Of a stretch of 34,612 bases of DNA, positions 1-34,612 are shown one piece after another. Made by a program: the position numbers and the translations under genes. The notes beneath the pieces are model-generated. The model did no database searches. It had not been told where the DNA came from and saw only the letters and a list, made by a program, of their open reading frames with translations. Source of the DNA: an uncultured Thiotrichales bacterium (GTDB lineage Bacteria > Pseudomonadota > Gammaproteobacteria > UWMA-0217); the NCBI GenBank assembly GCA_964613895.1, contig CAZTJP010000003.1:1-34612 (forward strand), in the 5' to 3' direction. Numbering within the stretch: the first letter of the stretch is position 1; each line of letters starts with the position of its first letter.

Positions 1-124
1 CTGGCGTTCGCGACCGAGGGCTGCGCAGGCGTAGTCGACACTACGTCGAGCAGCCCGACCGAGTGAACGACAGTCAGCGCGCCGCATTGGGCGGCCGCAG
101 CCGTGATCCTGTGAGAAATGCGGG
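1..124 (+). repeat. Palindromic MITE-like element, copy 1 (5' part cut by window edge)
   Basis: Colinear with 19824-19947 without gaps (8 mismatches in 124 by manual count); right end GAGAAATGCGGG at 113-124, followed by CTAG at 125-128. Confidence 0.93.
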
Positions 125-919
125 CTAGCCCGGGTTTTTCATATCGAAAACACGCCACTTTCTTTTTGCAGTGATTTCAGTCACTGACTGAACAACATAC
201 CGGTTCAGAAAGATGATGCTGCTGATTCGTCTGCATGGACTGAACCCGGCTTTCTCCATGGCTCTCATCGACGGGGTGTTATCGGGCGCACAACTGGTGT
301 ATATCGAGTCATGATCGCGTGCTTCGGTGAGGTAATGCGTAATTGCAACCAGCACGCTAGGAAAGATTCCCCGGCCCCGCCATGCCTCGATCGTTTCGCA
401 ATTTCCGATCAGGGGCACTTTCGGATCGAGGCCAAGCAGATGCTTGTAACTGCTTCGATAGAACGCATAGGAATGGTGAATCACGCGGCCTTCATGATCA
501 AGCACGGCGAATAACAGATCATCCTTGTAGAGCTGCGCCCGGTACTGGGCATCTTCAAGCGCGAACAACTGCTGATGAACCTCTGGCTCCAGGCTGTCTG
601 GAGGTCGATCCGCCCCAACCCGACATAATGTCAGATCCGGAAAATCAGCTAACCCGGGTTTCTCGCAGGGCCGCGCAGCGAGGCCGCTCAGCGCGCCGCA
701 TTGGGCGGCCACAGTCGTGATTCCGCGAGAAATCCGGGCTAATCCTGCCCGCTTCGACTCAGGCTTCCAGTGATAAACGACATCGCGTTGCAGACGCAAC
801 AAGCGTCCAGCCATGAACAGCAGGAACTTGCGAACACCGCGTTTACGCCAGACAGTAACGAGTCGCTGAAAGATTGCCGCAAGGCTGGTCGCCGAATGCA
901 CGCTGGATTCTGACTTCAT
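125..919 (-). CDS. GNAT-family N-acetyltransferase carrying a 30-aa repeat-derived insertion
   Basis: 264-aa ORF with acetyl-CoA motif A-like 'CETIEAWRGRGIF' and C-terminal 'DNTPSMRAMEKAGF'; contains repeat copy 2; start codon uncertain. Confidence 0.72.
   Translation of the reverse strand: MKSESSVHSATSLAAIFQRLVTVWRKRGVRKFLLFMAGRLLRLQRDVVYHWKPESKRAGLARISRGITTVAAQCGALSGLAARPCEKPGLADFPDLTLCRVGADRPPDSLEPEVHQQLFALEDAQYRAQLYKDDLLFAVLDHEGRVIHHSYAFYRSSYKHLLGLDPKVPLIGNCETIEAWRGRGIFPSVLVAITHYLTEARDHDSIYTSCAPDNTPSMRAMEKAGFSPCRRISSIIFLNRYVVQSVTEITAKRKWRVFDMKNPG
653..738 (+). repeat. Palindromic MITE-like element, copy 2 (internally deleted, 86 bp), inside GNAT CDS
   Basis: Ends CCCGGGTTTCTC (653-664) and GAGAAATCCGGG (727-738); CTAA direct repeat at 649-652 and 739-742 (90 bp apart). 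Confidence 0.92.
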
Positions 920-18049: not shown

Positions 18050-19725
18050 TGTTTGATGCCCTCTTTTTCCAGCTTGCGGGTGATATACCACTGCTGGGCG
18101 ATCGACAGCATATTGTTGACCACCCAGTACAAAACCAGCCCGGATGAAAAGAATGCAAAGAACACAGTGAAGATGAACGGCATGGCCATCATCATTTTCT
18201 GCATCATAGGATCCGGTTGAGGCGGGTTCAGTTTCTGCTGAATGAACATCGAAACCCCCATGATGACCGGTAGAATGAACAACGGATCACGAACGGACAG
18301 ATCCTTGATCCACAGAATCCAGGGCGCCTGACGCAGCTCCACTGCCTCGATCAACACCCAGTACAACGCAATGAATACAGGAATCTGGATCAGGATTGGC
18401 AGGCATCCTCCCAGCGGATTGATCTTTTCCTTCTTGTACAGATCCATCATCGCCTGCTGATGCGCTTGCTTGTCGTCACCGAAACGGTCTTTCAACGCCT
18501 GGATCTTGGGTGCAACCTTCTTCATTTTCGCCATCGAGCGATAACTGGTTTCCGACAGTTTGTAGAAGACGCCTTTGACCAGCACGGTCAACAAAATAAT
18601 GGACCAGCCCCAGTTGCCCACCAGGCTGTGAATTTTCGACAGCAACCAGAACAACGGTTTTGAAAAGATGGTGAAAATGCCGTAGTCGATGGTCAGCTCC
18701 AGGCCTGGCGCAAGACTGGCCAGCTTGTTCTGCAAGGTCGGTCCGACATAGAGCCGTGAATGCAGCATGCCTTTTTCACCGGCGGGAATGGTCACCGCTT
18801 GCGAACGCAGACCGATGATGTATTCCTGGCCTTTGGCACCATTGACAACCTTGGAATACAGCAGGTTTTCCGACTCGGGCGAGGACGGAATCCAGGCCGA
18901 CAGGAAATAATGCTGCATCATCGTCACCCAGCCGCCCGTGACCGTTTCCTTGAGCGGGTTTTCGGCCATTTTATCGAGTGGCAACTTGTGAAATTTTCCA
19001 TCGTAATAAGCGGCGCCAAAATAAGAACGGGTGCCACCCAGGTGCGAACCCTTGCTCACCGGTTTTCCGCGACGCAATTGCATGTACTCCCGGCCTACCC
19101 AGTTGCTGCCCGAAGCATTCTGAACCTGATAATCGACATCGACGTGAAATTCACCTTTATGAAAAGTGAAGATCTTGTCTACCTGAACGCCGTCCTCACT
19201 CTGCCAGTGCATGACGACCTGGACTTTTTCCTTGCCATCGAGCGTATAGTTCGTTTGCTCGGCGGTGAACATCGCATAGTGATTCGGCGCTCGCTTGTCC
19301 CAGCCGGCACCAGTCTTGTCATGCAGCAGACCCGATTGCGCAATATAGGGTTTGTCGGCACTGAACAGCACCAGCGGAATATCTTTCTGTTCGACGCTGA
19401 CTGGATAGGTGGGCAATTTGACCGTGGTGATATCGCCGCCGCGTGTGCTGATGGTCACATCCAGTACATCGGTCACGACATGTACCGTTGGGGCGGCTGT
19501 CGAAGTGGTACCCGCCGTTGGCGCCTGAGCGGCCGACGGCGTATTCGCCGATGGAATGTCAGCACCAGTGTCCCGGGCAACGGCGTTGCTCACTGTCTTG
19601 GATGCTGACTGGCTCGTGGAAACGGCTGGCTGCGACTTTGGCGCATGATCCGCCGTCCACTGTTGCCAGATCAAAAAACCGAGGAAAAACAGTGCTAGGT
19701 ACAGGAAAGGCCGCTGGCTATCCAT
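18046..19725 (-). CDS. yidC: Membrane protein insertase
   Basis: MDSQR N-terminus plus TM1, large periplasmic domain, DYG, GNWG, NPLGGCLP, GLVLYW; 559 aa. Confidence 0.98.
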   Translation of the reverse strand: MDSQRPFLYLALFFLGFLIWQQWTADHAPKSQPAVSTSQSASKTVSNAVARDTGADIPSANTPSAAQAPTAGTTSTAAPTVHVVTDVLDVTISTRGGDITTVKLPTYPVSVEQKDIPLVLFSADKPYIAQSGLLHDKTGAGWDKRAPNHYAMFTAEQTNYTLDGKEKVQVVMHWQSEDGVQVDKIFTFHKGEFHVDVDYQVQNASGSNWVGREYMQLRRGKPVSKGSHLGGTRSYFGAAYYDGKFHKLPLDKMAENPLKETVTGGWVTMMQHYFLSAWIPSSPESENLLYSKVVNGAKGQEYIIGLRSQAVTIPAGEKGMLHSRLYVGPTLQNKLASLAPGLELTIDYGIFTIFSKPLFWLLSKIHSLVGNWGWSIILLTVLVKGVFYKLSETSYRSMAKMKKVAPKIQALKDRFGDDKQAHQQAMMDLYKKEKINPLGGCLPILIQIPVFIALYWVLIEAVELRQAPWILWIKDLSVRDPLFILPVIMGVSMFIQQKLNPPQPDPMMQKMMMAMPFIFTVFFAFFSSGLVLYWVVNNMLSIAQQWYITRKLEKEGIKH

Positions 19726-19993
19726 GGTATCGATGAACCTGGTTGGGAAAGAATTTATCCGGCATCGCCAGCCCGGATTTCTCGCCGGGTCGCGTAGCGA
19801 GGCCGCTCAAGGTGGTGCGATGACTGGCGTTCGCGACCGAGGGCCGCGCAGGCGTAGTCGACACTACGTCGAGCAGCCCGACTGAGTGAACGCCAGTCAG
19901 CGCGCCGCATTGGGCGGTCGCAGCCGTGATTCTGGGAGAAATCCTGGCCAGGATTTCCGTAACCTTCAATAATGTCTGGCAATCTTGCGCCAT
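19718..19993 (-). CDS. Possible 91-aa ORF in the yidD position, two-thirds encoded by repeat copy 3; not recognisable as YidD
   Basis: Overlaps the rnpA 3' end and the yidC start, but lacks the YidD CRFxPTCS and HP..GG.DPVP motifs; may be non-coding. Confidence 0.25.
   Translation of the reverse strand: MAQDCQTLLKVTEILARISPRITAATAQCGALTGVHSVGLLDVVSTTPARPSVANASHRTTLSGLATRPGEKSGLAMPDKFFPNQVHRYHG
19772..19947 (+). repeat. Palindromic MITE-like element, copy 3 (full length, 176 bp)
   Basis: Ends CCCGGATTTCTC / GAGAAATCCTGG; CCAG direct repeat at 19768-19771 and 19948-19951 (180 bp apart); nested inverted repeats throughout. Confidence 0.95.
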
Positions 19994-20325
19994 TGTTTTT
20001 CCAGTGATTGCGTCAAGGCGCGATTGTCGAGCCGATCCAATCCACGACGGGCGATGAACACGATATCGACAGCCGGCAATTGTGGTCGCGCCCGCCTGAA
20101 AGATTCACGAGCCAGGCGCTTGATCCGGTTCCGTTCAACGCTCAGCCGTATGTTCTTGCGGGCGATCACCAGTCCGAGCCGAGCGGCTCCTTGGTCATTC
20201 CGGCGGGCAAGCAGCGTATACGCCGGATGACGAAATGCCTTGGCCTGGTCGAAAACACGACTGAAATCACCCGGTTTGAGGAGGCGCGCCGCCTTGGGGA
20301 AACCGGTGCCTTTCGACCGCTCTAT
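19966..20325 (-). CDS. rnpA: Ribonuclease P protein component
   Basis: Manual translation extends the ORF-track fragment: [17 protein letters not shown]...RLGLVIARK...[16 protein letters not shown] (RNR motif); no ATG/GTG/TTG upstream of the conserved N-terminus, ATA at 20325 proposed. Confidence 0.93.
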
Positions 20326-22155: not shown

Positions 22156-22397
22156 CATGAACATCTTCTGCATAAGCCTGTGGATAAATGTAGAATGGAT
22201 GCCGAAGCTGGATTCATTCAGGTTTTATCCACAGGCCACAGACAGGATCGAAGGCGGCTTTTGCACGGCTTACCCTTGAGGAAATATTATTTATGTTATT
22301 GATTAATAACGATTTTATTTTCTTATCCCCAGCAACACGAGCCGCTAATAATCGTAGTAACAAGTTTTATATATAACTCTATTATCAAGGCTAGGCG
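22156..22397. other. Probable replication origin oriC (dnaA-dnaN intergenic)
   Basis: Perfect DnaA boxes TGTGGATAA 22179-22187 and TTATCCACA 22225-22233, one-mismatch TTATCCCCA 22323-22331, AT-rich tracts at about 22282-22325 and 22346-22388, IHF-like site 22292-22304. Confidence 0.8.
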
Positions 22398-23518: not shown

Positions 23519-24607
23519 ATGGAGCTGCGTAAGCTCACGATCCAGTCTTTCAGGAATCTGTCATCACTGACGTTGGCGCCAGGCCCCGGGTTCAATGTGT
23601 TCTGGGGCGCGAATGGGGCTGGCAAGACTAGTATTCTCGAGGCGATTCATACGCTTTCTCAGGGTAAATCCTTTCGTAGTGGCGCTGTCAGGGATCTCAT
23701 CCAGTATCAGCAATCATCTTTCGTCATCAGCGCCGAGTTGGTGCGTTCCGGCAGTCTCCACCATATCGGCATCGAACGAAGCAGGGAACGCATGCGCGCC
23801 CGCATCGATTACGAGGATGTCGGCTCGATCAGGGAACTGGCCCGTAACTTGCCAGTCATCAGTATCCATCCCGGTTCCTTTGCGCTCATCACCGGAGAGC
23901 CGGCAGCGCGGCGTGCTTTTCTCGATTGGGGACTTTTCTTTGCCGATGCCGGATTTCACGACCACTGGCTCCGTTATGCTCGAGCGCTCAAGCAACGTAA
24001 TGCCGCGATTCGGTTGGGTAGTTCACCCAGACTGATTCGGCAGTGGGATGAAGCACTGGTCGAGCATGGCGAAATCATTTCTCGCGCGCGGCAGGGTTAT
24101 CTGCAACAGATCGCCGAAGGGCTGCCTTCCACTGCCGAGCAGTTTTCCTGGCAGGACAAGCTGGCGTTGAATTACCGTTGGGGCTGGCCTGATAACCAAT
24201 CGTTGGCTGAGGTGCTGGAACAGAACATCGACCGAGACCGCCAGCTTGGATTCACCTTCGCAGGCCCCCATCGGGGCGATTTCTCCACTCGTTTCTGTGA
24301 TCATGACGCCGCGCGTTTTGGCTCCCGCGGTCAAGTCAAGATGATTACATTGCTGCTCAAGCTGACCCAGGCACGCTTGTTCGCCAACCAGTTTGATCGG
24401 AAATGCGTGCTGTTGCTCGATGATGTCGCGTCGGAACTCGATCAGGAGAGGCAGTTGCAGTTGATTGGCGTGGTATACAGGCTAGGGCTGCAAACCTTCG
24501 TGACGTCAGTGGAGAAGAACGCTGAATTGTATCGTGGGGCTTCGGATACACGGATGTTTCACGTGAAACATGGCAAGTTGTCCCGGAATTCTCACAGGGT
24601 CGTATAG
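23519..24607 (+). CDS. recF: DNA replication/repair protein RecF
   Basis: FRNL, GANGAGKTS Walker A, GPHRGD, SRGQ, LLLDDVASELD; last residues and stop come from repeat copy 4. Confidence 0.97.
   Translation: MELRKLTIQSFRNLSSLTLAPGPGFNVFWGANGAGKTSILEAIHTLSQGKSFRSGAVRDLIQYQQSSFVISAELVRSGSLHHIGIERSRERMRARIDYEDVGSIRELARNLPVISIHPGSFALITGEPAARRAFLDWGLFFADAGFHDHWLRYARALKQRNAAIRLGSSPRLIRQWDEALVEHGEIISRARQGYLQQIAEGLPSTAEQFSWQDKLALNYRWGWPDNQSLAEVLEQNIDRDRQLGFTFAGPHRGDFSTRFCDHDAARFGSRGQVKMITLLLKLTQARLFANQFDRKCVLLLDDVASELDQERQLQLIGVVYRLGLQTFVTSVEKNAELYRGASDTRMFHVKHGKLSRNSHRVV
24555..24570. promoter_or_regulatory. parS centromere-like site (inside recF 3' end)
   Basis: Perfect TGTTTCACGTGAAACA palindrome matching the canonical chromosomal parS consensus; parAB present in window. 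Confidence 0.92.
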
Positions 24608-24766
24608 GAGACTGCTCAAGGTGGTGTGATGGCTGGTGTTCGCGAGCGAGGGCCGCGCAGGCGTAGTTGACACACAGGGACACTACGTCGAGCAGCCCGA
24701 CCTTGTGAACGACAGTCAGCGCGCCGCATTGGGCGGTCGCAGTCGTGACCCTGTGAGAAATTCGGG
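24582..24766 (+). repeat. Palindromic MITE-like element, copy 4 (185 bp, enlarged central loop)
   Basis: Ends CCCGGAATTCTC / GAGAAATTCGGG then CTAG; aligns with copy 3 with about 10 extra nt in the apical hairpin. Confidence 0.93.
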
Positions 24767-24867
24767 CTAGCAAATAAGCGGGCAGGCAAGCAGTTACATC
24801 GGGATTTTCAATCAGAACAGGTATATAATAGCGGTTCAGCAATCTGCTGAATCCCAAACTACCTCCA

Positions 24868-24883
24868 TGTTTCACGTGAAACA
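24868..24883. promoter_or_regulatory. parS centromere-like site (recF-gyrB intergenic)
   Basis: Second perfect TGTTTCACGTGAAACA, 313 bp from the first. Confidence 0.92.
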
Positions 24884-24975
24884 TTCCCGGGTTACTCGTT
24901 ATCGCCGTGAGGATTTTCCCGTTGGATACTGGGCGGGATCGAAGCGATAGACAGGGGCAGGGCCCCGGACATTGA

Positions 24976-27396
<2,421 letters not shown>

Positions 27397-27430: not shown

Positions 27431-27499
27431 TCCGGGTTTCTCATCAGCGTAGCGAGGCCGTATTGGGTGCTCGCCGTCGTGATCTGATAGGAAACCGGG
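27431..27499 (+). repeat. Palindromic MITE-like element, copy 5 (degenerate mini-copy, about 69 bp)
   Basis: CCGGGTTTCTC...CGTAGCGAGGCCG...ATTGGG...TCGTGAT...GAAACCGGG then CCAG; retains both ends and diagnostic internal words. Confidence 0.78.
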
Positions 27500-27545: not shown

Positions 27546-29591
27546 ATGACGGAAAACCCACTACTAGAACAGACTGATCTGCCAGCCTTTTCCAAAATTC
27601 GCCCTGAGCATATCGAACCTGCTATCGACCAAATCCTGGCGGATAATCGTCAGGCCTTGCAAGAACTGCTGACCCGGCACTCGACATTCACCTGGGACAA
27701 GCTGATCGTTCCACTGGAGGAGAACGAAGATCGCTTGTCTCGCGCCTGGTCTCCGGTGCGGCACATGAACTCGGTCGTCAACAGTGAACCATTGCGCCAG
27801 GCCTACAATAACTGCCTGCCGAAGTTGTCCGAATATGGCACTGAACTGGGGCAGAACCGGGCGCTGTTCGAAGCCTACAAGCAATTGCGGAAAATCGCGG
27901 ATGAACAAGGTTTGAGCAGCGCGCAAAAAACAGTGCTGGACAAGGCCATTCGTGATTTCAAGCTCAGCGGAGTGGATCTCGATGGCGACAAAAAGCAGCG
28001 TTTTTCTGAAATTTCAAAACAATTAAGTGAATTATCGGCGAAGTTCGAGGAAAATGTACTCGATGCCACCAATGCCTGGAGCAAGCATCTGCCTGATCTC
28101 GAATCCTTGGCCGGACTGCCACCGAGTGCAATGGAGATGGTGCAACAGGAAGCCAAATCCCGCGACCTCGACGGTGCCGTGATCACGCTGCAGTATCCTT
28201 CCTACATCGCAGTGATGACTTACGCCGATGATCGCAGCCTGCGGGAAGAAGTCTATCGGGCATTCGTCACCCGGGCGTCCGATCAGGGAGACAAGCCTGA
28301 ATGGGACAATTCCCAAATCATCGAAGACATGCTGCGGCTCAAACATGAGGCAGCGCAGCTGCTCGGATTCAACAATTTTGCGGAACGTTCGCTGGCGACC
28401 AAGATGGCGGAGTCACCGGCCAGCGTCATGGCGTTTCTCGAAGATCTGGCGGCACGCGCCCGACCGGCTGCCGAACGCGAATTCTCCGAGCTACGCCGCT
28501 TTGCACGTGGCGTGCTGGGCTATGATGAGCTGAAGGCCTGGGACGTCGCCTATGCCAGTGAAAAACTCAAGGGCGTCCATTATTCACTGTCACAGGAAGA
28601 CCTCAAACCGTATTTCCCGGTCGATAATGTCGTCAACGGCCTGTTCGCGCTGGTTCGGAAACTCTACGGTATCGACATCCGGCCTCGGAACGATGTCGAT
28701 ACCTGGCATCCCGATGTGCGGTTCTACGAGATCTACGATCGGGAGGGACAACTTCAGGCACAATTCTATTTCGATCTGTATGCCCGTCAAAACAAGCGTG
28801 GCGGCGCCTGGATGGACGAATGCATCAGCCGCCGGCGAACTCCCCGGGGTATCCAGATCCCTGTCGCCTACATGACCTGTAACTCCAGTCCACCGGTAGG
28901 TGACAAGCCGGCATTGTTCACCCACGATGAAGTGATCACCCTGTTCCATGAATTCGGTCATGGCCTGCACCACATGCTCACCCGCATCGATGAAGCCGAC
29001 GTCGCCGGCATCAGCGGGGTGGAATGGGACGCGGTCGAGCTCCCCAGCCAGTTCATGGAAAACTGGTGTTGGGAGCGAGAAGTGCTGGATATGTTCGCCC
29101 GCCACTACGAGACCGACGAACCACTGCCCGACTCGCTCTACCAGAAACTGATCGCCAGCAAGAATTTTCAGGCTGCCATGCAAATGGTGCGGCAGCTCGA
29201 GTTCGCCATTTTCGACATGCGTATCCACAGCGAATACGATCCGGAGAAAGGCGCTCGCGTCATGGAAATACTGGACCAGGTCCGGCGCCAGGTCGCTGTG
29301 CTGCAACCCCCGGCATACAATCGTTTTCCGCACAGCTTCAGCCACATCTTCGGTGGCGGCTACGCGGCCGGCTACTACAGCTACAAATGGGCTGAGGTGC
29401 TGTCGGCGGACGCCTTCTCGCGTTTCGAGGAAGAAGGCCTCTTCAATCCCAAGGTGGGCACGGATTTTCTCGAACATATCCTGCAGGTTGGCGGCTCGCG
29501 CGATGCGATGGAATCCTTCAAGGCCTTTCGTGGACGTGAACCACGCATCGACGCCCTGCTCAAACACAGTGGCCTGCTCGAGACCGACTGA
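27546..29591 (+). CDS. prlC: Oligopeptidase A (M3 family metallopeptidase)
   Basis: NPLL N-terminus, KRGGAWM, FHEFGHGLHH zinc motif, WDAVELPSQ, GYAAGYYSYKWAE; 681 aa. Confidence 0.96.
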   Translation: MTENPLLEQTDLPAFSKIRPEHIEPAIDQILADNRQALQELLTRHSTFTWDKLIVPLEENEDRLSRAWSPVRHMNSVVNSEPLRQAYNNCLPKLSEYGTELGQNRALFEAYKQLRKIADEQGLSSAQKTVLDKAIRDFKLSGVDLDGDKKQRFSEISKQLSELSAKFEENVLDATNAWSKHLPDLESLAGLPPSAMEMVQQEAKSRDLDGAVITLQYPSYIAVMTYADDRSLREEVYRAFVTRASDQGDKPEWDNSQIIEDMLRLKHEAAQLLGFNNFAERSLATKMAESPASVMAFLEDLAARARPAAEREFSELRRFARGVLGYDELKAWDVAYASEKLKGVHYSLSQEDLKPYFPVDNVVNGLFALVRKLYGIDIRPRNDVDTWHPDVRFYEIYDREGQLQAQFYFDLYARQNKRGGAWMDECISRRRTPRGIQIPVAYMTCNSSPPVGDKPALFTHDEVITLFHEFGHGLHHMLTRIDEADVAGISGVEWDAVELPSQFMENWCWEREVLDMFARHYETDEPLPDSLYQKLIASKNFQAAMQMVRQLEFAIFDMRIHSEYDPEKGARVMEILDQVRRQVAVLQPPAYNRFPHSFSHIFGGGYAAGYYSYKWAEVLSADAFSRFEEEGLFNPKVGTDFLEHILQVGGSRDAMESFKAFRGREPRIDALLKHSGLLETD

Positions 29592-32573: not shown

Positions 32574-34607
32574 ATGGAAGCGGAAGATCGGGCAACCGAG
32601 CCCTCCCGCCAGCGTGGCTGGCTGGGTATCGACACCGGCGGCACGTTTACCGATTTCGTCTATATCGAACAAGGCGCGGTGCGTGTCCACAAGGTGCCTT
32701 CGACGCCGGACCACCCTGAGCAGGCGATCCTGCGCGGCATCCGCGAAATGGGACTGCATGAGCGGGCGTTGCGCATCGTTCACGGCTCGACCGTGGCCAC
32801 CAATGCGGTGCTTGAAGGCAAAGGCGCGCGCACCGCGTACATCACCAACCGGGGCTTCGGCGATATTCTGACGATTGGCCGTCAGGCTCGCCGCGAACTG
32901 TACAATCTCCAGCCCCGGCCCGGCGAGCCTCCAGTCCCGCGCGAGCTGTGCCTGGAAACCGGCGGACGCTTGTCGGCGGATGGTGAATGGCTGGAGCCGT
33001 TGACCGACGAAGATATCGAGCGATTGCGGGCGGCGCTCGCCCGGCTCCGTCCGCAAGCTGTTGCCATCAACCTGCTGTTCTCGTTTGTCGATGATTCCGC
33101 CGAACGGCAGCTGGCAGCCGCGATCGATCCTGCCATCTTTGTCTCACGTTCCTCTGCGGTATTACGGGAATACCGGGAATACGAACGGGGTATCGCCACC
33201 TGGCTGAATGCGCGAGTCGGGCCGGTGATGAAGCAATATCTGCGACGCCTGACGACGGCGCTGAAGGACTGTGACATCGAGGTCATGCAAAGTCATGGCG
33301 GCACCATTCCGGCTCGCCAGGCGGGTGATCTGGCCGTGCAATTGTTGCTGTCGGGGCCCGCTGGCGGACTGGTGGGCGCCGCGGCGATGGCGAAACAGCT
33401 CGGCCATGACCGGCTGATGACTTTCGACATGGGCGGCACCTCCACCGATGTGGCGTTGATCGATGGCGAAATCGGCCTGACTTCGGAAGGTCAGATCGCC
33501 GGTTTCCCGGTCGCCACGCCGATGGTGGACATGCACACCATCGGAGCTGGTGGCGGCTCATTGGCCTGGCTGGATGCCGGTGGCATGCTGCAAGTGGGTC
33601 CCGAGTCCGCTGGCGCGGATCCAGGACCGGCCTGTTATGGCCGCGGTGGCGACAGGCCCACGGTGACCGATGCCAATCTGTTACTCGGCCATCTCGCGCC
33701 GGGCACATTGCTGGGCGGATCGATGCCGCTGGATCGGCCTGCGGCAGAACGGGCAATCGCCCGACTGGCCGAACAAGCCAGCCTGACAGCGGCAGACATG
33801 GCACGTGGCATCGTGCGGATCGCGAACGAACACATGGTCCAGGCTCTGCGGGTGATCTCGGTACAGCGAGGCTACGATCCGCGTGATTTCGTACTGATGC
33901 CGTTCGGTGGTTCGGCCGGCCTGCATGTCTGTGCCCTGGCCGATGCGATGCGCATCGACCGGGTGCTGGTCCCGATTCATGGTGGCGTCCTGTCGGCTTT
34001 CGGCATGGTGGTCGCCGAGCCGGCGCGGGAAATCTCCCAGTCACTGGTGAAGCGACTCGACCGCTGTTCCGCCGATGAGCTGGCAGACCGCTTCACCGAT
34101 TTCGAGGCACAACTGGCCGCCGCGATGAATCATCCTGCCGACAGGCTCCGGTTCCAGCGTCGGGTGGAATGCCGATATCTGGGGCAATCTTCGGTGCTGC
34201 GGCTCCCCTGGCAATCCGATCCGGCGGCGATTGCGAAGGCATTCCACGATCTTCATCAGGCCCAGTATGGACATGCGCTGGATGCGCCGGTCGAGCTGGT
34301 CAACCTGCGGGCTCGGGCGGTTGCACCGCGCCAGCCCCATGACTTGCCGCGCCGTCCGATTCGTGAACCCGCCAGTCCGACCGATCATGTCCAAACGCTC
34401 GATGAAGGCCGCGTTCCGGTCTATGCGCGTGAGCAGCTGGCGCCGGCACAACGGATCGAAGGACCAGCGATCATCACGGAAACGGTTGCCACCACCTGGC
34501 TGGCACGCGACTGGACGGCAACGCTGACGCCTGAAGGCCATTTGTGGCTCGCCAGACCGCATTTCTCACAGGGTCGCGTAGCGACGTCGAGCAGCCCGAC
34601 CGAGTGA
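32574..34607 (+). CDS. Hydantoinase A / 5-oxoprolinase family protein
   Basis: GIDTGGTFTD, HGSTVATNA, SGPAGG, DMGGTSTDV, GAGGGS, PESAGADPGPACYG, PTVTDAN; last about 16 aa come from repeat copy 6. Confidence 0.93.
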   Translation: MEAEDRATEPSRQRGWLGIDTGGTFTDFVYIEQGAVRVHKVPSTPDHPEQAILRGIREMGLHERALRIVHGSTVATNAVLEGKGARTAYITNRGFGDILTIGRQARRELYNLQPRPGEPPVPRELCLETGGRLSADGEWLEPLTDEDIERLRAALARLRPQAVAINLLFSFVDDSAERQLAAAIDPAIFVSRSSAVLREYREYERGIATWLNARVGPVMKQYLRRLTTALKDCDIEVMQSHGGTIPARQAGDLAVQLLLSGPAGGLVGAAAMAKQLGHDRLMTFDMGGTSTDVALIDGEIGLTSEGQIAGFPVATPMVDMHTIGAGGGSLAWLDAGGMLQVGPESAGADPGPACYGRGGDRPTVTDANLLLGHLAPGTLLGGSMPLDRPAAERAIARLAEQASLTAADMARGIVRIANEHMVQALRVISVQRGYDPRDFVLMPFGGSAGLHVCALADAMRIDRVLVPIHGGVLSAFGMVVAEPAREISQSLVKRLDRCSADELADRFTDFEAQLAAAMNHPADRLRFQRRVECRYLGQSSVLRLPWQSDPAAIAKAFHDLHQAQYGHALDAPVELVNLRARAVAPRQPHDLPRRPIREPASPTDHVQTLDEGRVPVYAREQLAPAQRIEGPAIITETVATTWLARDWTATLTPEGHLWLARPHFSQGRVATSSSPTE

Positions 34608-34612
34608 ACGCC
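34556..34612 (+). repeat. Palindromic MITE-like element, copy 6 (internal deletion; cut by window edge)
   Basis: CCAG then ACCGCATTTCTCACAGGGTCGCGTAGCGA joined to CGTCGAGCAGCCCGACCGAGTGAACG, both matching the other copies. Confidence 0.9.

What the first reader, a model, noticed from the sequence alone, without database searches (positions are those of the whole stretch)
19768..19951. Unrecognised family of about 176-bp palindromic mobile elements colonising the conserved oriC region (6 copies in 34.6 kb)
Seen: related copies at 1-124, 653-738, 19772-19947, 24582-24766, 27431-27499 and 34556-34612. They share 12-bp terminal inverted repeats (CCCGGATTTCTC / GAGAAATCCGGG). Copies 2 and 3 have matching 4-bp flanking direct repeats that differ between copies (CTAA vs CCAG), as expected for target-site duplications. 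No transposase or RAYT is in the window, and both window ends fall inside a copy. Known: MITEs, ERIC and Rickettsia palindromic elements behave similarly, but I do not recognise this sequence as any of them. Inference: a high-copy non-autonomous element mobilised in trans by an IS-type transposase with a CYAR target.
Basis: partly seen in the sequence, partly recalled or inferred. Interest (0 to 1): 0.85.

Follow-up and report, generated by a model that had tools for sequence, protein, structure and literature searches.

The report
Hairpin MITE family with IS1380-type ends
The repeats are real copies of a small non-coding jumping element whose tips match those of IS1380-family insertion sequences, so it is an ordinary kind of bacterial mobile DNA, though an unusually abundant and neatly hairpin-shaped one.

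Summary
The window (a whole contig, broken at both ends inside copies) carries six copies of a palindromic element whose full form is 176 bp. The 2.64-Mb assembly has 186 places with it. Ends are CCCG(G/C/A)ATTTCTCAC. The 4-bp flanks have consensus YTAR and are identical direct repeats in 21 of 71 paired elements, against 5.4 expected. The element is genome-wide and mostly intergenic, not special to the oriC region. Shorter forms (48, 61, 74, 86 nt) are internal deletions between short direct repeats in the two arms.

The ends match IS1380-family insertion sequences. An IS on Pseudomonas putida plasmid pKF715A has CTAG|CCCGCATTTCTCACAGG…GTGAGAAATGCGGG|CTAG. Several gammaproteobacterial ISs share these ends and YTAR duplications. 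One genome of another family (G386) holds both such an IS and hundreds of ends of the same 176-nt element. No IS1380 transposase is in the window's own fragmented assembly.

Verdict: a MITE moved in trans by an IS1380-family transposase, a new member of a known kind. The hairpin is kept by compensatory changes between two subfamilies, which remains unexplained.

The parts
1..124 (+). Right-hand 124 nt of a full-length (176-nt type) copy, cut by the contig start. It is followed by CTAG (125-128), whose TAG on the minus strand is the stop codon of the ORF 125-919.
   Evidence: 93% identical to 19824-19951; sequence read; the ORF 125-919 (-) has a GNAT domain
653..738 (+). 86-nt internal-deletion derivative (left 38 nt joined to right 51 nt, 3-nt overlap TCA), flanked by CTAA/CTAA
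19772..19947 (+). Full-length 176-nt copy, a single long hairpin, flanked by CCAG/CCAG (19768-19771 and 19948-19951). It lies 47 nt upstream of the yidC start on the minus strand.
24582..24766 (+). 185-nt copy (176-nt type with 10 extra central bases; 82% identical to the reference copy). Flanks are TTGT/CTAG, not a duplication. The recF ORF 23519-24607 runs 26 nt into it and stops there.
27431..27499 (.). Degenerate 69-nt short copy between gyrB (stop at 27396) and the M3 peptidase gene (start at 27546)
   Evidence: TIR match with 2 mismatches; sequence; missed by BLAST, so this is the weakest member
34556..34612 (+). Copy cut by the contig end, with the left 29 nt joined directly to inner right-arm sequence. 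The hydantoinase-family ORF 32574-34607 runs about 50 nt into it.

Best explanation
[quoted passage not shown] The master form is a 176-bp near-perfect palindrome without coding capacity. Its outermost 16-18 bp are the terminal inverted repeats of one branch of the IS1380 family of insertion sequences. Shown: the family, its ends, its 4-bp YTAR flanking duplications, its mainly intergenic spread, and the identity of its tips with autonomous IS1380-family elements that make the same duplications. Inferred: an IS1380-family DDE transposase supplied in trans binds the two tips, cuts the element out or copies it, and inserts it at a YTAR tetranucleotide, duplicating those four bases. The shorter size classes arose by deletion between 3-8-nt direct repeats that the hairpin brings together (inferred as replication slippage). 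They keep both tips, so they could still move. In the window's own genome no cognate transposase gene was found. The copies there (mean 89% pairwise identity) may be relics of past bursts, or the IS may sit in unassembled or unbinned DNA.
For: Family and copy number: 235 BLAST pieces merge into 186 places, 59 at contig ends. Flanks: of 71 paired elements with both flanks, 21 have identical 4-bp direct repeats, against 5.40 +/- 2.10 in 10,000 shuffles (maximum 13; none reached 21). Among the 50 with a non-palindromic left flank, 12 are identical as direct repeats and 1 as inverted repeats. The consensus is C/T, T/C, A/G, G/A on both sides. The same ends and CTAG, CCAG or CAAG flanks occur in G010, G012, G013 and G001. 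IS1380 link: G386 IS (L152) has CTAG|CCCGCATTTCTCACCAGG...GGTGGTGAGAAATGCGGG|CTAG. G327 IS (L154) has CTAG|CCCGCATTTCTCACCG...|TTAG. G090 IS (L165) has TTAG|CCCGGATATTTCA...|TTAG. L150 is CTAA/CTAA, L153 CTAA/CTAA and L168 CTAG/CTAG. The IS annotated 'IS1380 family transposase' on P. putida plasmid pKF715A has CTAG|CCCGCATTTCTCACAGG...GTGAGAAATGCGGG|CTAG; 17 of 17 tip bases equal those of copies in this genome such as C83:3113. The type element IS1380A ends in ...TGTGAGAAATCCGCG with 4-bp TCGA/TCAA flanks. The L152 transposase is 51% identical to IS1380A transposase and scores 521 bits on PF13701. Co-residence: G386 has that IS plus 184+184 tip matches (control 0+0) and 43 BLAST matches to the element; 6 of 7 fetched copies are 176 nt with CTAG/CTAG. 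In a class-wide sample the element was found in 5 of 399 scored genomes other than G000. Three of those 5 also carry PF13701, against 32 of the other 395 (Fisher 0.0055, but two of the three are kin). Location: 132 of 186 places are intergenic, 40 overlap a gene edge and 14 lie inside my crude ORF calls, in a genome that is 88% ORF by the same calls. Deletions: the junction overlap is GGTCGC in 9 of 13 48-nt forms and GCCGC in 7 of 8 74-nt forms.
Against: No IS1380-family transposase is in the window's genome. PF13701 gives only an 18-bit sub-threshold hit on an IS4-like gene. tblastn with four IS1380 transposases finds nothing better than E 0.17. None was found in G010, G012, G013 or G001 either. 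Homology between the element and the ISs stops after 16-18 bp; the interiors are unrelated. Only 21 of 71 flank pairs are perfect. Copy 24582-24766 in the window has unlike flanks, TTGT/CTAG. No exact empty site and no presence/absence polymorphism was seen. At 3 mismatches the 14-mer tip motif is not specific on its own: 320+302 hits against 23-291 for scrambled motifs. A few of the 71 pairs, such as the 31-nt and 53-nt ones, are therefore probably chance. They were kept in the count and can only dilute the signal. Mobilisation itself is untested.
Confidence: 0.8

Rival explanations
1. A MITE derived from and moved by an IS5-family (IS5 group) transposase. By my recollection of ISfinder, that group also makes 4-bp duplications at YTAR.
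For: The YTAR 4-bp flanks. One IS5-type gene (DUF772 + DDE_Tnp_1) is in the own genome on C389 and one is in G010.
Against: The ends of both IS5-type elements were read and do not resemble the element's tips. C389 has CAGCTGG..CCGGCATTAACC-type repeats. G010:C17 has GGGAACCTCTGATCAATT. The two ISs share no nucleotide similarity with each other. G012, G013 and G001 have the element but no DUF772 hit.
Confidence: 0.04
2. A REP/REPIN-like hairpin repeat spread by a RAYT (Y1 tyrosine transposase) through single-stranded DNA.
For: Two Y1_Tnp genes are in the genome, on C303 (239 aa) and C263 (320 aa). The element is a hairpin that is often intergenic and is flanked by xTAG, which recalls the GTAG head of REPs (recalled).
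Against: Neither Y1 contig carries any copy of the element. The flanks co-vary as direct repeats (CCAG/CCAG, TTAA/TTAA, CTGG/CTGG, CTAC/CTAC), which is what a staggered cut by a DDE enzyme gives and not what Y1 insertion beside a fixed target gives. The tips equal those of DDE-type IS1380 elements.
Confidence: 0.03
3. The copies are no longer mobile in this genome. They persist because the hairpin itself is useful to the host or to its transcripts, for example as a terminator or stabiliser, a protein binding site or a structural DNA element. This is compatible with an IS1380 origin.
For: There is no cognate transposase. Copies are on average 89% alike. Pairing is kept across two subfamilies that differ at about a quarter of positions: 18 of 51 pairs have changes on both sides, against 12.7 +/- 1.4 in shuffles (0 of 500) and 4-7 with slid partners. 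The length is exactly 176 nt in both subfamilies. An unpaired GACCGAG is kept on both arms.
Against: Orientation relative to the upstream gene is only weakly biased (65 co-directional, 43 opposed, p 0.043, using crude gene calls). Arm-to-arm correction within a palindrome would give the same covariation without any function. No RNA run was available to test transcription.
Confidence: 0.12

Closest known systems
IS1380-family insertion sequences with CCCGCATTTCTCAC ends (for example the IS annotated 'IS1380 family transposase' on Pseudomonas putida KF715 plasmid pKF715A, NZ_AP015030.1; and ISs in genomes G386, G327, G242, G339, G243)
   Same: The terminal 16-18 bp are identical or nearly so. 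They begin with CCC and make 4-bp duplications of CTAG, CTAA or TTAG.
   Different: Those are 1.56-1.75-kb elements with one transposase gene of about 470 aa. The element here is 48-185 bp, has no gene, and has an unrelated, fully palindromic interior.
IS1380A of Acetobacter pasteurianus (type member of the family; NC_017136.1)
   Same: The right end TGTGAGAAATCCGCG matches the element's TGTGAGAAATCCGGG at 14 of 15 bases, and the flank is 4 bp. Its transposase is 51% identical to that of the G386 IS.
   Different: The flank is TCGA/TCAA rather than YTAR, and the tip begins CGCGG rather than CCCGG.
Other bacterial MITEs, such as MITEPye1 of Paracoccus yeei (IS1182-related; passages of PMC11578231 read) and Correia/NEMIS, ERIC and RUP (recalled)
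   Same: They are small and non-coding, with inverted-repeat ends and direct-repeat flanks. They are intergenic and fold into long stem-loops.
   Different: They have a different parent IS family, different ends and a different duplication length. MITEPye1 has 1-3 chromosomal copies (PMC11578231), against 186 places here.
piggyBac-type elements and their MITEs in eukaryotes
   Same: IS1380 transposases are used as the prokaryotic outgroup of piggyBac (passages of PMC10813416 read). piggyBac has a 4-bp TTAA duplication (same paper) and tips that begin CCC (recalled). TTAA is one of the YTAR flanks seen here (5 left and 6 right of 71).
   Different: The target here is looser (CTAG is the commonest). 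The host is a bacterium. No sequence similarity was tested.
REPINs / REP elements with RAYT
   Same: They are abundant intergenic hairpins.
   Different: No RAYT is associated here, and target duplications are present.

Membership tests
Bacterial MITE | Small size and no coding capacity | tested here: met
   Forms of 48-185 nt; listed
Bacterial MITE | Terminal inverted repeats | tested here: met
   CCCGSATTTCTCAC at both ends; whole-element hairpin
Bacterial MITE | Target-site duplications that differ between copies | tested here: met
   21 of 71 identical 4-bp direct flanks against 5.4 expected, with 0 of 10,000 shuffles reaching 21; 12 direct against 1 inverted among non-palindromic flanks
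Bacterial MITE | Many dispersed copies | tested here: met
   186 places in 2.64 Mb; 132 intergenic
Bacterial MITE | Ends shared with an autonomous IS | tested here: met
   16-18 bp shared with IS1380-family ISs
Bacterial MITE | Evidence of movement (exact empty site, polymorphism or assay) | tested here: inconclusive
   Three congeners lack it upstream of yidC, but the spacer is too diverged. No contig joins across it in 3 runs. Copies cluster mostly by genome, which fits amplification within each lineage.
IS1380-family dependent element | Tips match IS1380-family tips | tested here: met
   An IS1380 of another branch in the same bacterial family (G007) shares only CCC.GATT.
IS1380-family dependent element | 4-bp duplication as made by those ISs | tested here: met
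   IS flanks are CTAG/CTAG, CTAA/CTAA, TTAG/TTAG and TCGA/TCGA. Element flanks are YTAR.
IS1380-family dependent element | Cognate transposase gene in the same genome | tested here: not met
   None in G000, which is 93% complete in 436 contigs, nor in G001, G010, G012 or G013. Met in G386.
IS1380-family dependent element | The transposase binds and moves the element | not testable with these tools
   Needs a transposition assay
IS5-family derived MITE | Ends shared with an IS5-family element | tested here: not met
REP/REPIN with RAYT | Y1 transposase gene flanked by the repeat, and no target duplication | tested here: not met
   No copy on the two Y1_Tnp contigs; duplications are present
Any Rfam family | Match at the gathering score | tested here: not met
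   0 matches in the window. A permissive search of 19700-20020 gave only three microRNA-hairpin models at 21-23 bits, against cut-offs of 70-268.

The most novel reading that the evidence does not exclude
The 176-nt hairpin is itself under selection rather than being a passive passenger. Two subfamilies that differ at about 25% of positions keep the same length, the same stem (14 of 51 pairs changed on both sides between the two consensus sequences, 1 broken) and the same unpaired GACCGAG on both arms. That would mean that this branch of IS1380 transposases needs a folded (cruciform or single-stranded) substrate, or that the hosts use the element as a structured DNA or RNA part. The element would also have passed between at least five gammaproteobacterial families.
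Probability: 0.2. Interest if true: 0.6.

Novelty: new member of a known kind. Interest (0 to 1): 0.4.

Why it matters
The finding explains why this assembly is shattered: 59 of the 186 places with the element touch a contig end, out of 872 contig ends. It gives a named transposase family to test. It adds a high-copy MITE to the IS1380 family, for which I found no MITE described in the papers searched (ISfinder could not be consulted). The nested deletion series and the compensatory upkeep of the hairpin make it a convenient natural case for studying how long palindromes survive and shrink in bacterial genomes. Two of the six copies in the window supply the stop codon of the upstream gene (recF and a hydantoinase-family gene), so the element also reshapes protein ends. 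None of this changes what is known about mobile DNA in principle.

Tried and rejected
Search for a parent element inside the own genome. Tip pairs 300-5000 bp apart gave only three cases (4091, 1897 and 657 bp), all of them separate small copies. Twenty one-ended or truncated copies run straight into unrelated unique sequence with no shared extension.

IS5-type and IS4-type transposase contigs (C389, C378) and the two Y1_Tnp contigs were read and rejected as partners. The G010 IS5-type element was also rejected.

The order-level search for PF13701 covered the same 14 genomes as the family search and added nothing.

The search for related loci with DnaA was meant to name the organism and fetch empty sites. 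The best relatives were only 67-69% identical and the own genome was left out. I can therefore say only that this is a gammaproteobacterium of a small uncultured order.

Exact empty site: G001, G002 and G003 have a short spacer without the element upstream of yidC, but no alignable single CCAG.

Public runs: three DNA runs of two studies hold the stretch, and no RNA holder is listed. When laid, contigs from both sides enter the element in X1 and X2, and no contig joins 19771 to 19948. The joints seen inside the element (skips of 58-104) are the deletion forms from other loci. The summed depth inside the element cannot be read as a copy number.

Orientation test for an RNA role: 65 against 43, p 0.043, with home-made gene calls. 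This is too weak to use. Mismatch-type asymmetry in the stem is dominated by one internal loop and was not pursued.

Literature: the four tip strings occur in 3 unrelated papers only. 'IS1380' with 'MITE' gave 7 papers. I read passages of two (PMC4133298, PMC11578231) and neither describes an IS1380-derived MITE. The other five I saw as listings only.

Full report
WHAT IS THERE. The window is one whole contig of a 2,641,662-base, 436-contig assembly that is 93% complete (G000:C3:1-34612). Pfam confirms its genes. On the minus strand lie a GNAT acetyltransferase, GlmS, a GlmU-like protein, ATP synthase genes, ParB, ParA, RsmG/GidB, MnmG/GidA, MnmE and YidC. On the plus strand lie DnaA, DnaN, RecF, GyrB, an M3 peptidase, an exonuclease III-like protein, a Tim44-like protein and a hydantoinase-family protein. 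Two perfect DnaA boxes lie between dnaA and dnaN (22179 and 22225).

The reference copy 19772-19947 is 176 nt, is flanked by CCAG on both sides and folds into one long hairpin (-61.7 kcal/mol as DNA, z -6.75).

THE FAMILY IN THE GENOME. BLAST of the reference copy against the assembly gives 235 pieces in 186 separate places, of which 59 touch a contig end. The repeat is therefore a main cause of the fragmentation, and both ends of the window are such breaks.

Pairing left and right tips gives sharp length classes: 48 nt (13), 73-75 (13), 61-63, 86-89 and 176 (14). At 3 mismatches the tip motif alone is not specific, because scrambled motifs give 23-291 hits against 320 and 302. The pairing is what gives specificity, and a few of the pairs are likely chance.

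Comparison with the 176-nt consensus shows that the short forms are its two ends joined across a short repeat present in both arms. The repeat is GGTCGC in 9 of 13 48-nt forms, GCCGC in 7 of 8 74-nt forms, CGC in 2 of 3 61-nt forms and TCA in 2 of 3 86-nt forms. This is the pattern expected from slippage across a hairpin (inference). Whether each short class then spread by transposition or arose repeatedly in place cannot be told from these data.

FLANKS. Among 71 paired elements with both flanks, the four bases outside each tip have the consensus C/T, T, A, G/A on both sides. They are identical direct repeats in 21 cases, against 5.40 +/- 2.10 when right flanks are shuffled among elements (0 of 10,000 shuffles reach 21). 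Where the left flank is not its own reverse complement (50 cases), 12 pairs match as direct repeats and 1 as inverted repeats. The flanks are therefore target duplications and not an outer part of the inverted repeat. Fifty of 71 pairs are imperfect, which fits old insertions.

By crude gene calls of my own, 132 of 186 places are intergenic, 40 overlap a gene edge and 14 lie inside a called ORF, in a genome that the same calls make 88% coding. The window's density is high but is matched on other contigs. The oriC region is not a special target.

WHO MOVES IT. The own genome has two DDE_Tnp_1 genes (one IS4-like with DUF4372, one IS5-like with DUF772) and two Y1_Tnp genes. None of their contigs carries the element, and their ends do not match.

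The lead came from an IS1380-family element in a genome of the same bacterial family (G007). Its ends start CCCAGATT, against CCCGGATT here. A class-wide search for PF13701 found the family in 35 of 401 genomes.

Among the fetched loci, several ISs carry the element's tips and YTAR duplications:
- G386: CTAG|CCCGCATTTCTCACCAGG...GGTGGTGAGAAATGCGGG|CTAG
- G327: CTAG...TTAG
- G242 and G339: CTAA/CTAA
- G243: CTAG/CTAG
- G090: TTAG/TTAG

The G386 transposase finds 'IS1380 family transposase' genes on 703 plasmid records. The best is on P. putida pKF715A (60.7% identity), and it is 51% identical to IS1380A. The pKF715A element reads CTAG|CCCGCATTTCTCACAGG...GTGAGAAATGCGGG|CTAG, a 17-base tip that is identical to many copies in the window's genome. 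IS1380A itself ends ...TGTGAGAAATCCGCG with TCGA/TCAA flanks. Beyond 16-18 bases the ISs and the small element are unrelated.

CO-RESIDENCE. G386, which belongs to another family of the class, carries that IS together with 184+184 tip matches (reversed-pattern control 0+0) and 43 BLAST matches to the window's copy. Six of the 7 copies I fetched are exactly 176 nt with CTAG on both sides, and the seventh ends at a contig end.

In the class sample the element was found in 6 of 400 scored genomes including the own one. Three of the five others also have PF13701, against 32 of the remaining 395. Two of the three are kin, so the test overstates.

In the window's own order (14 genomes) the element is in G000, G001, G010, G012 and G013, none of which shows an IS1380 transposase. 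All five are fragmented assemblies of 150 to 670 contigs.

HISTORY. Full-length copies fall into two subfamilies. Subfamily A is in G000, G010 and G012. Subfamily B is in G001 and G013, and G386 copies are of the B type. This cuts across the genera, because G000 and G001 are congeners, as are G010, G012 and G013.

Copies are 89% alike on average within G000 and 86.6% alike between G000 and G010. The housekeeping DNA beside the reference copy aligns at only 65-72% between those genera. Copies cluster mostly by genome.

The simplest reading (inference) is spread between lineages, followed by separate bursts in each.

THE HAIRPIN. On 37 full-length copies the consensus fold has 51 pairs. Eighteen have changes on both sides with pairing kept. 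That compares with 12.7 +/- 1.4 in shuffles (0 of 500 as high) and 4-7 when partners are slid by 1-3 columns. In all, 95.9% of cells are paired.

Between the two subfamily consensus sequences, 14 pairs changed on both sides, 4 on one side and 1 broke. Most of this is one deep split, so it amounts to about 14 events on one branch. Selection on structure or arm-to-arm correction within a palindrome would both give this result, and I cannot separate them.

COMPARISON AND VERDICT. The element meets every structural criterion of a bacterial MITE, and its tips and duplication place it with one branch of the IS1380 family. The one defining feature not met in this genome is a resident transposase.

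No Rfam family matches. I found no paper that describes an IS1380-derived MITE. ISfinder and paper supplements were out of reach.

It is a new member of a known kind. It is real, abundant and tidy, but ordinary in principle.

Noticed in passing
window 24554-24573 and 24865-24884: The perfect palindrome ATGTTTCACGTGAAACAT occurs exactly twice in the whole assembly. Both copies are here, one 8 nt before the recF-gyrB copy of the element and one about 95 nt before the gyrB start. The second is followed by CCCGGGTTACTC, a 2-mismatch look-alike of the element's tip. It may be an operator-like site or a small duplication. It remains unexplained.
   Followed up: partly
window 22176-22236: Two perfect DnaA boxes in inverted orientation (TGTGGATAA at 22179, TTATCCACA at 22225) lie in the 243-nt dnaA-dnaN spacer. 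This is a likelier origin or DnaA-regulatory site than any spot hit by the element.
   Followed up: no
window 24582-24607 and 34556-34607: The recF ORF and the hydantoinase-family ORF both read into a copy of the element and take their stop codon from it. At 125-128 the CTAG flank of the first copy supplies the stop of the ORF 125-919, which has a GNAT domain. The YTAR target contains TAG or TAA, so insertion at or near stop codons may be favoured.
   Followed up: partly
window 129-140: CCCGGGTTTTTC, a 2-mismatch look-alike of the tip, lies directly after the CTAG that follows copy 1 and inside the last codons of the ORF 125-919. It may be a remnant of a neighbouring copy or chance.
   Followed up: no
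G000:C263:606-1565 (L042): A 320-aa protein joins a Y1_Tnp (IS200-like) domain to a C-terminal DnaA-type helix-turn-helix (Bac_DnaA_C, 47.5 bits). This is an unusual pairing and is not linked to the repeat.
   Followed up: no
G000:C234:3804-4005 and C254/C416: On C234 two copies sit head to tail and share one CTAG, which suggests insertion into the duplicated target of an earlier copy. The copies on C254 and C416 are 98.9% alike and share their right flank, so they are a duplicated region or an assembly doublet and not two insertions.
   Followed up: no
G007:C37:1-1488 (L140): A 1488-bp IS1380-family element of another branch (ends CCCAGATTGTCCATTAGCC, 27-nt inverted repeats) sits in a genome of the same bacterial family that lacks the small element.
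   Followed up: partly
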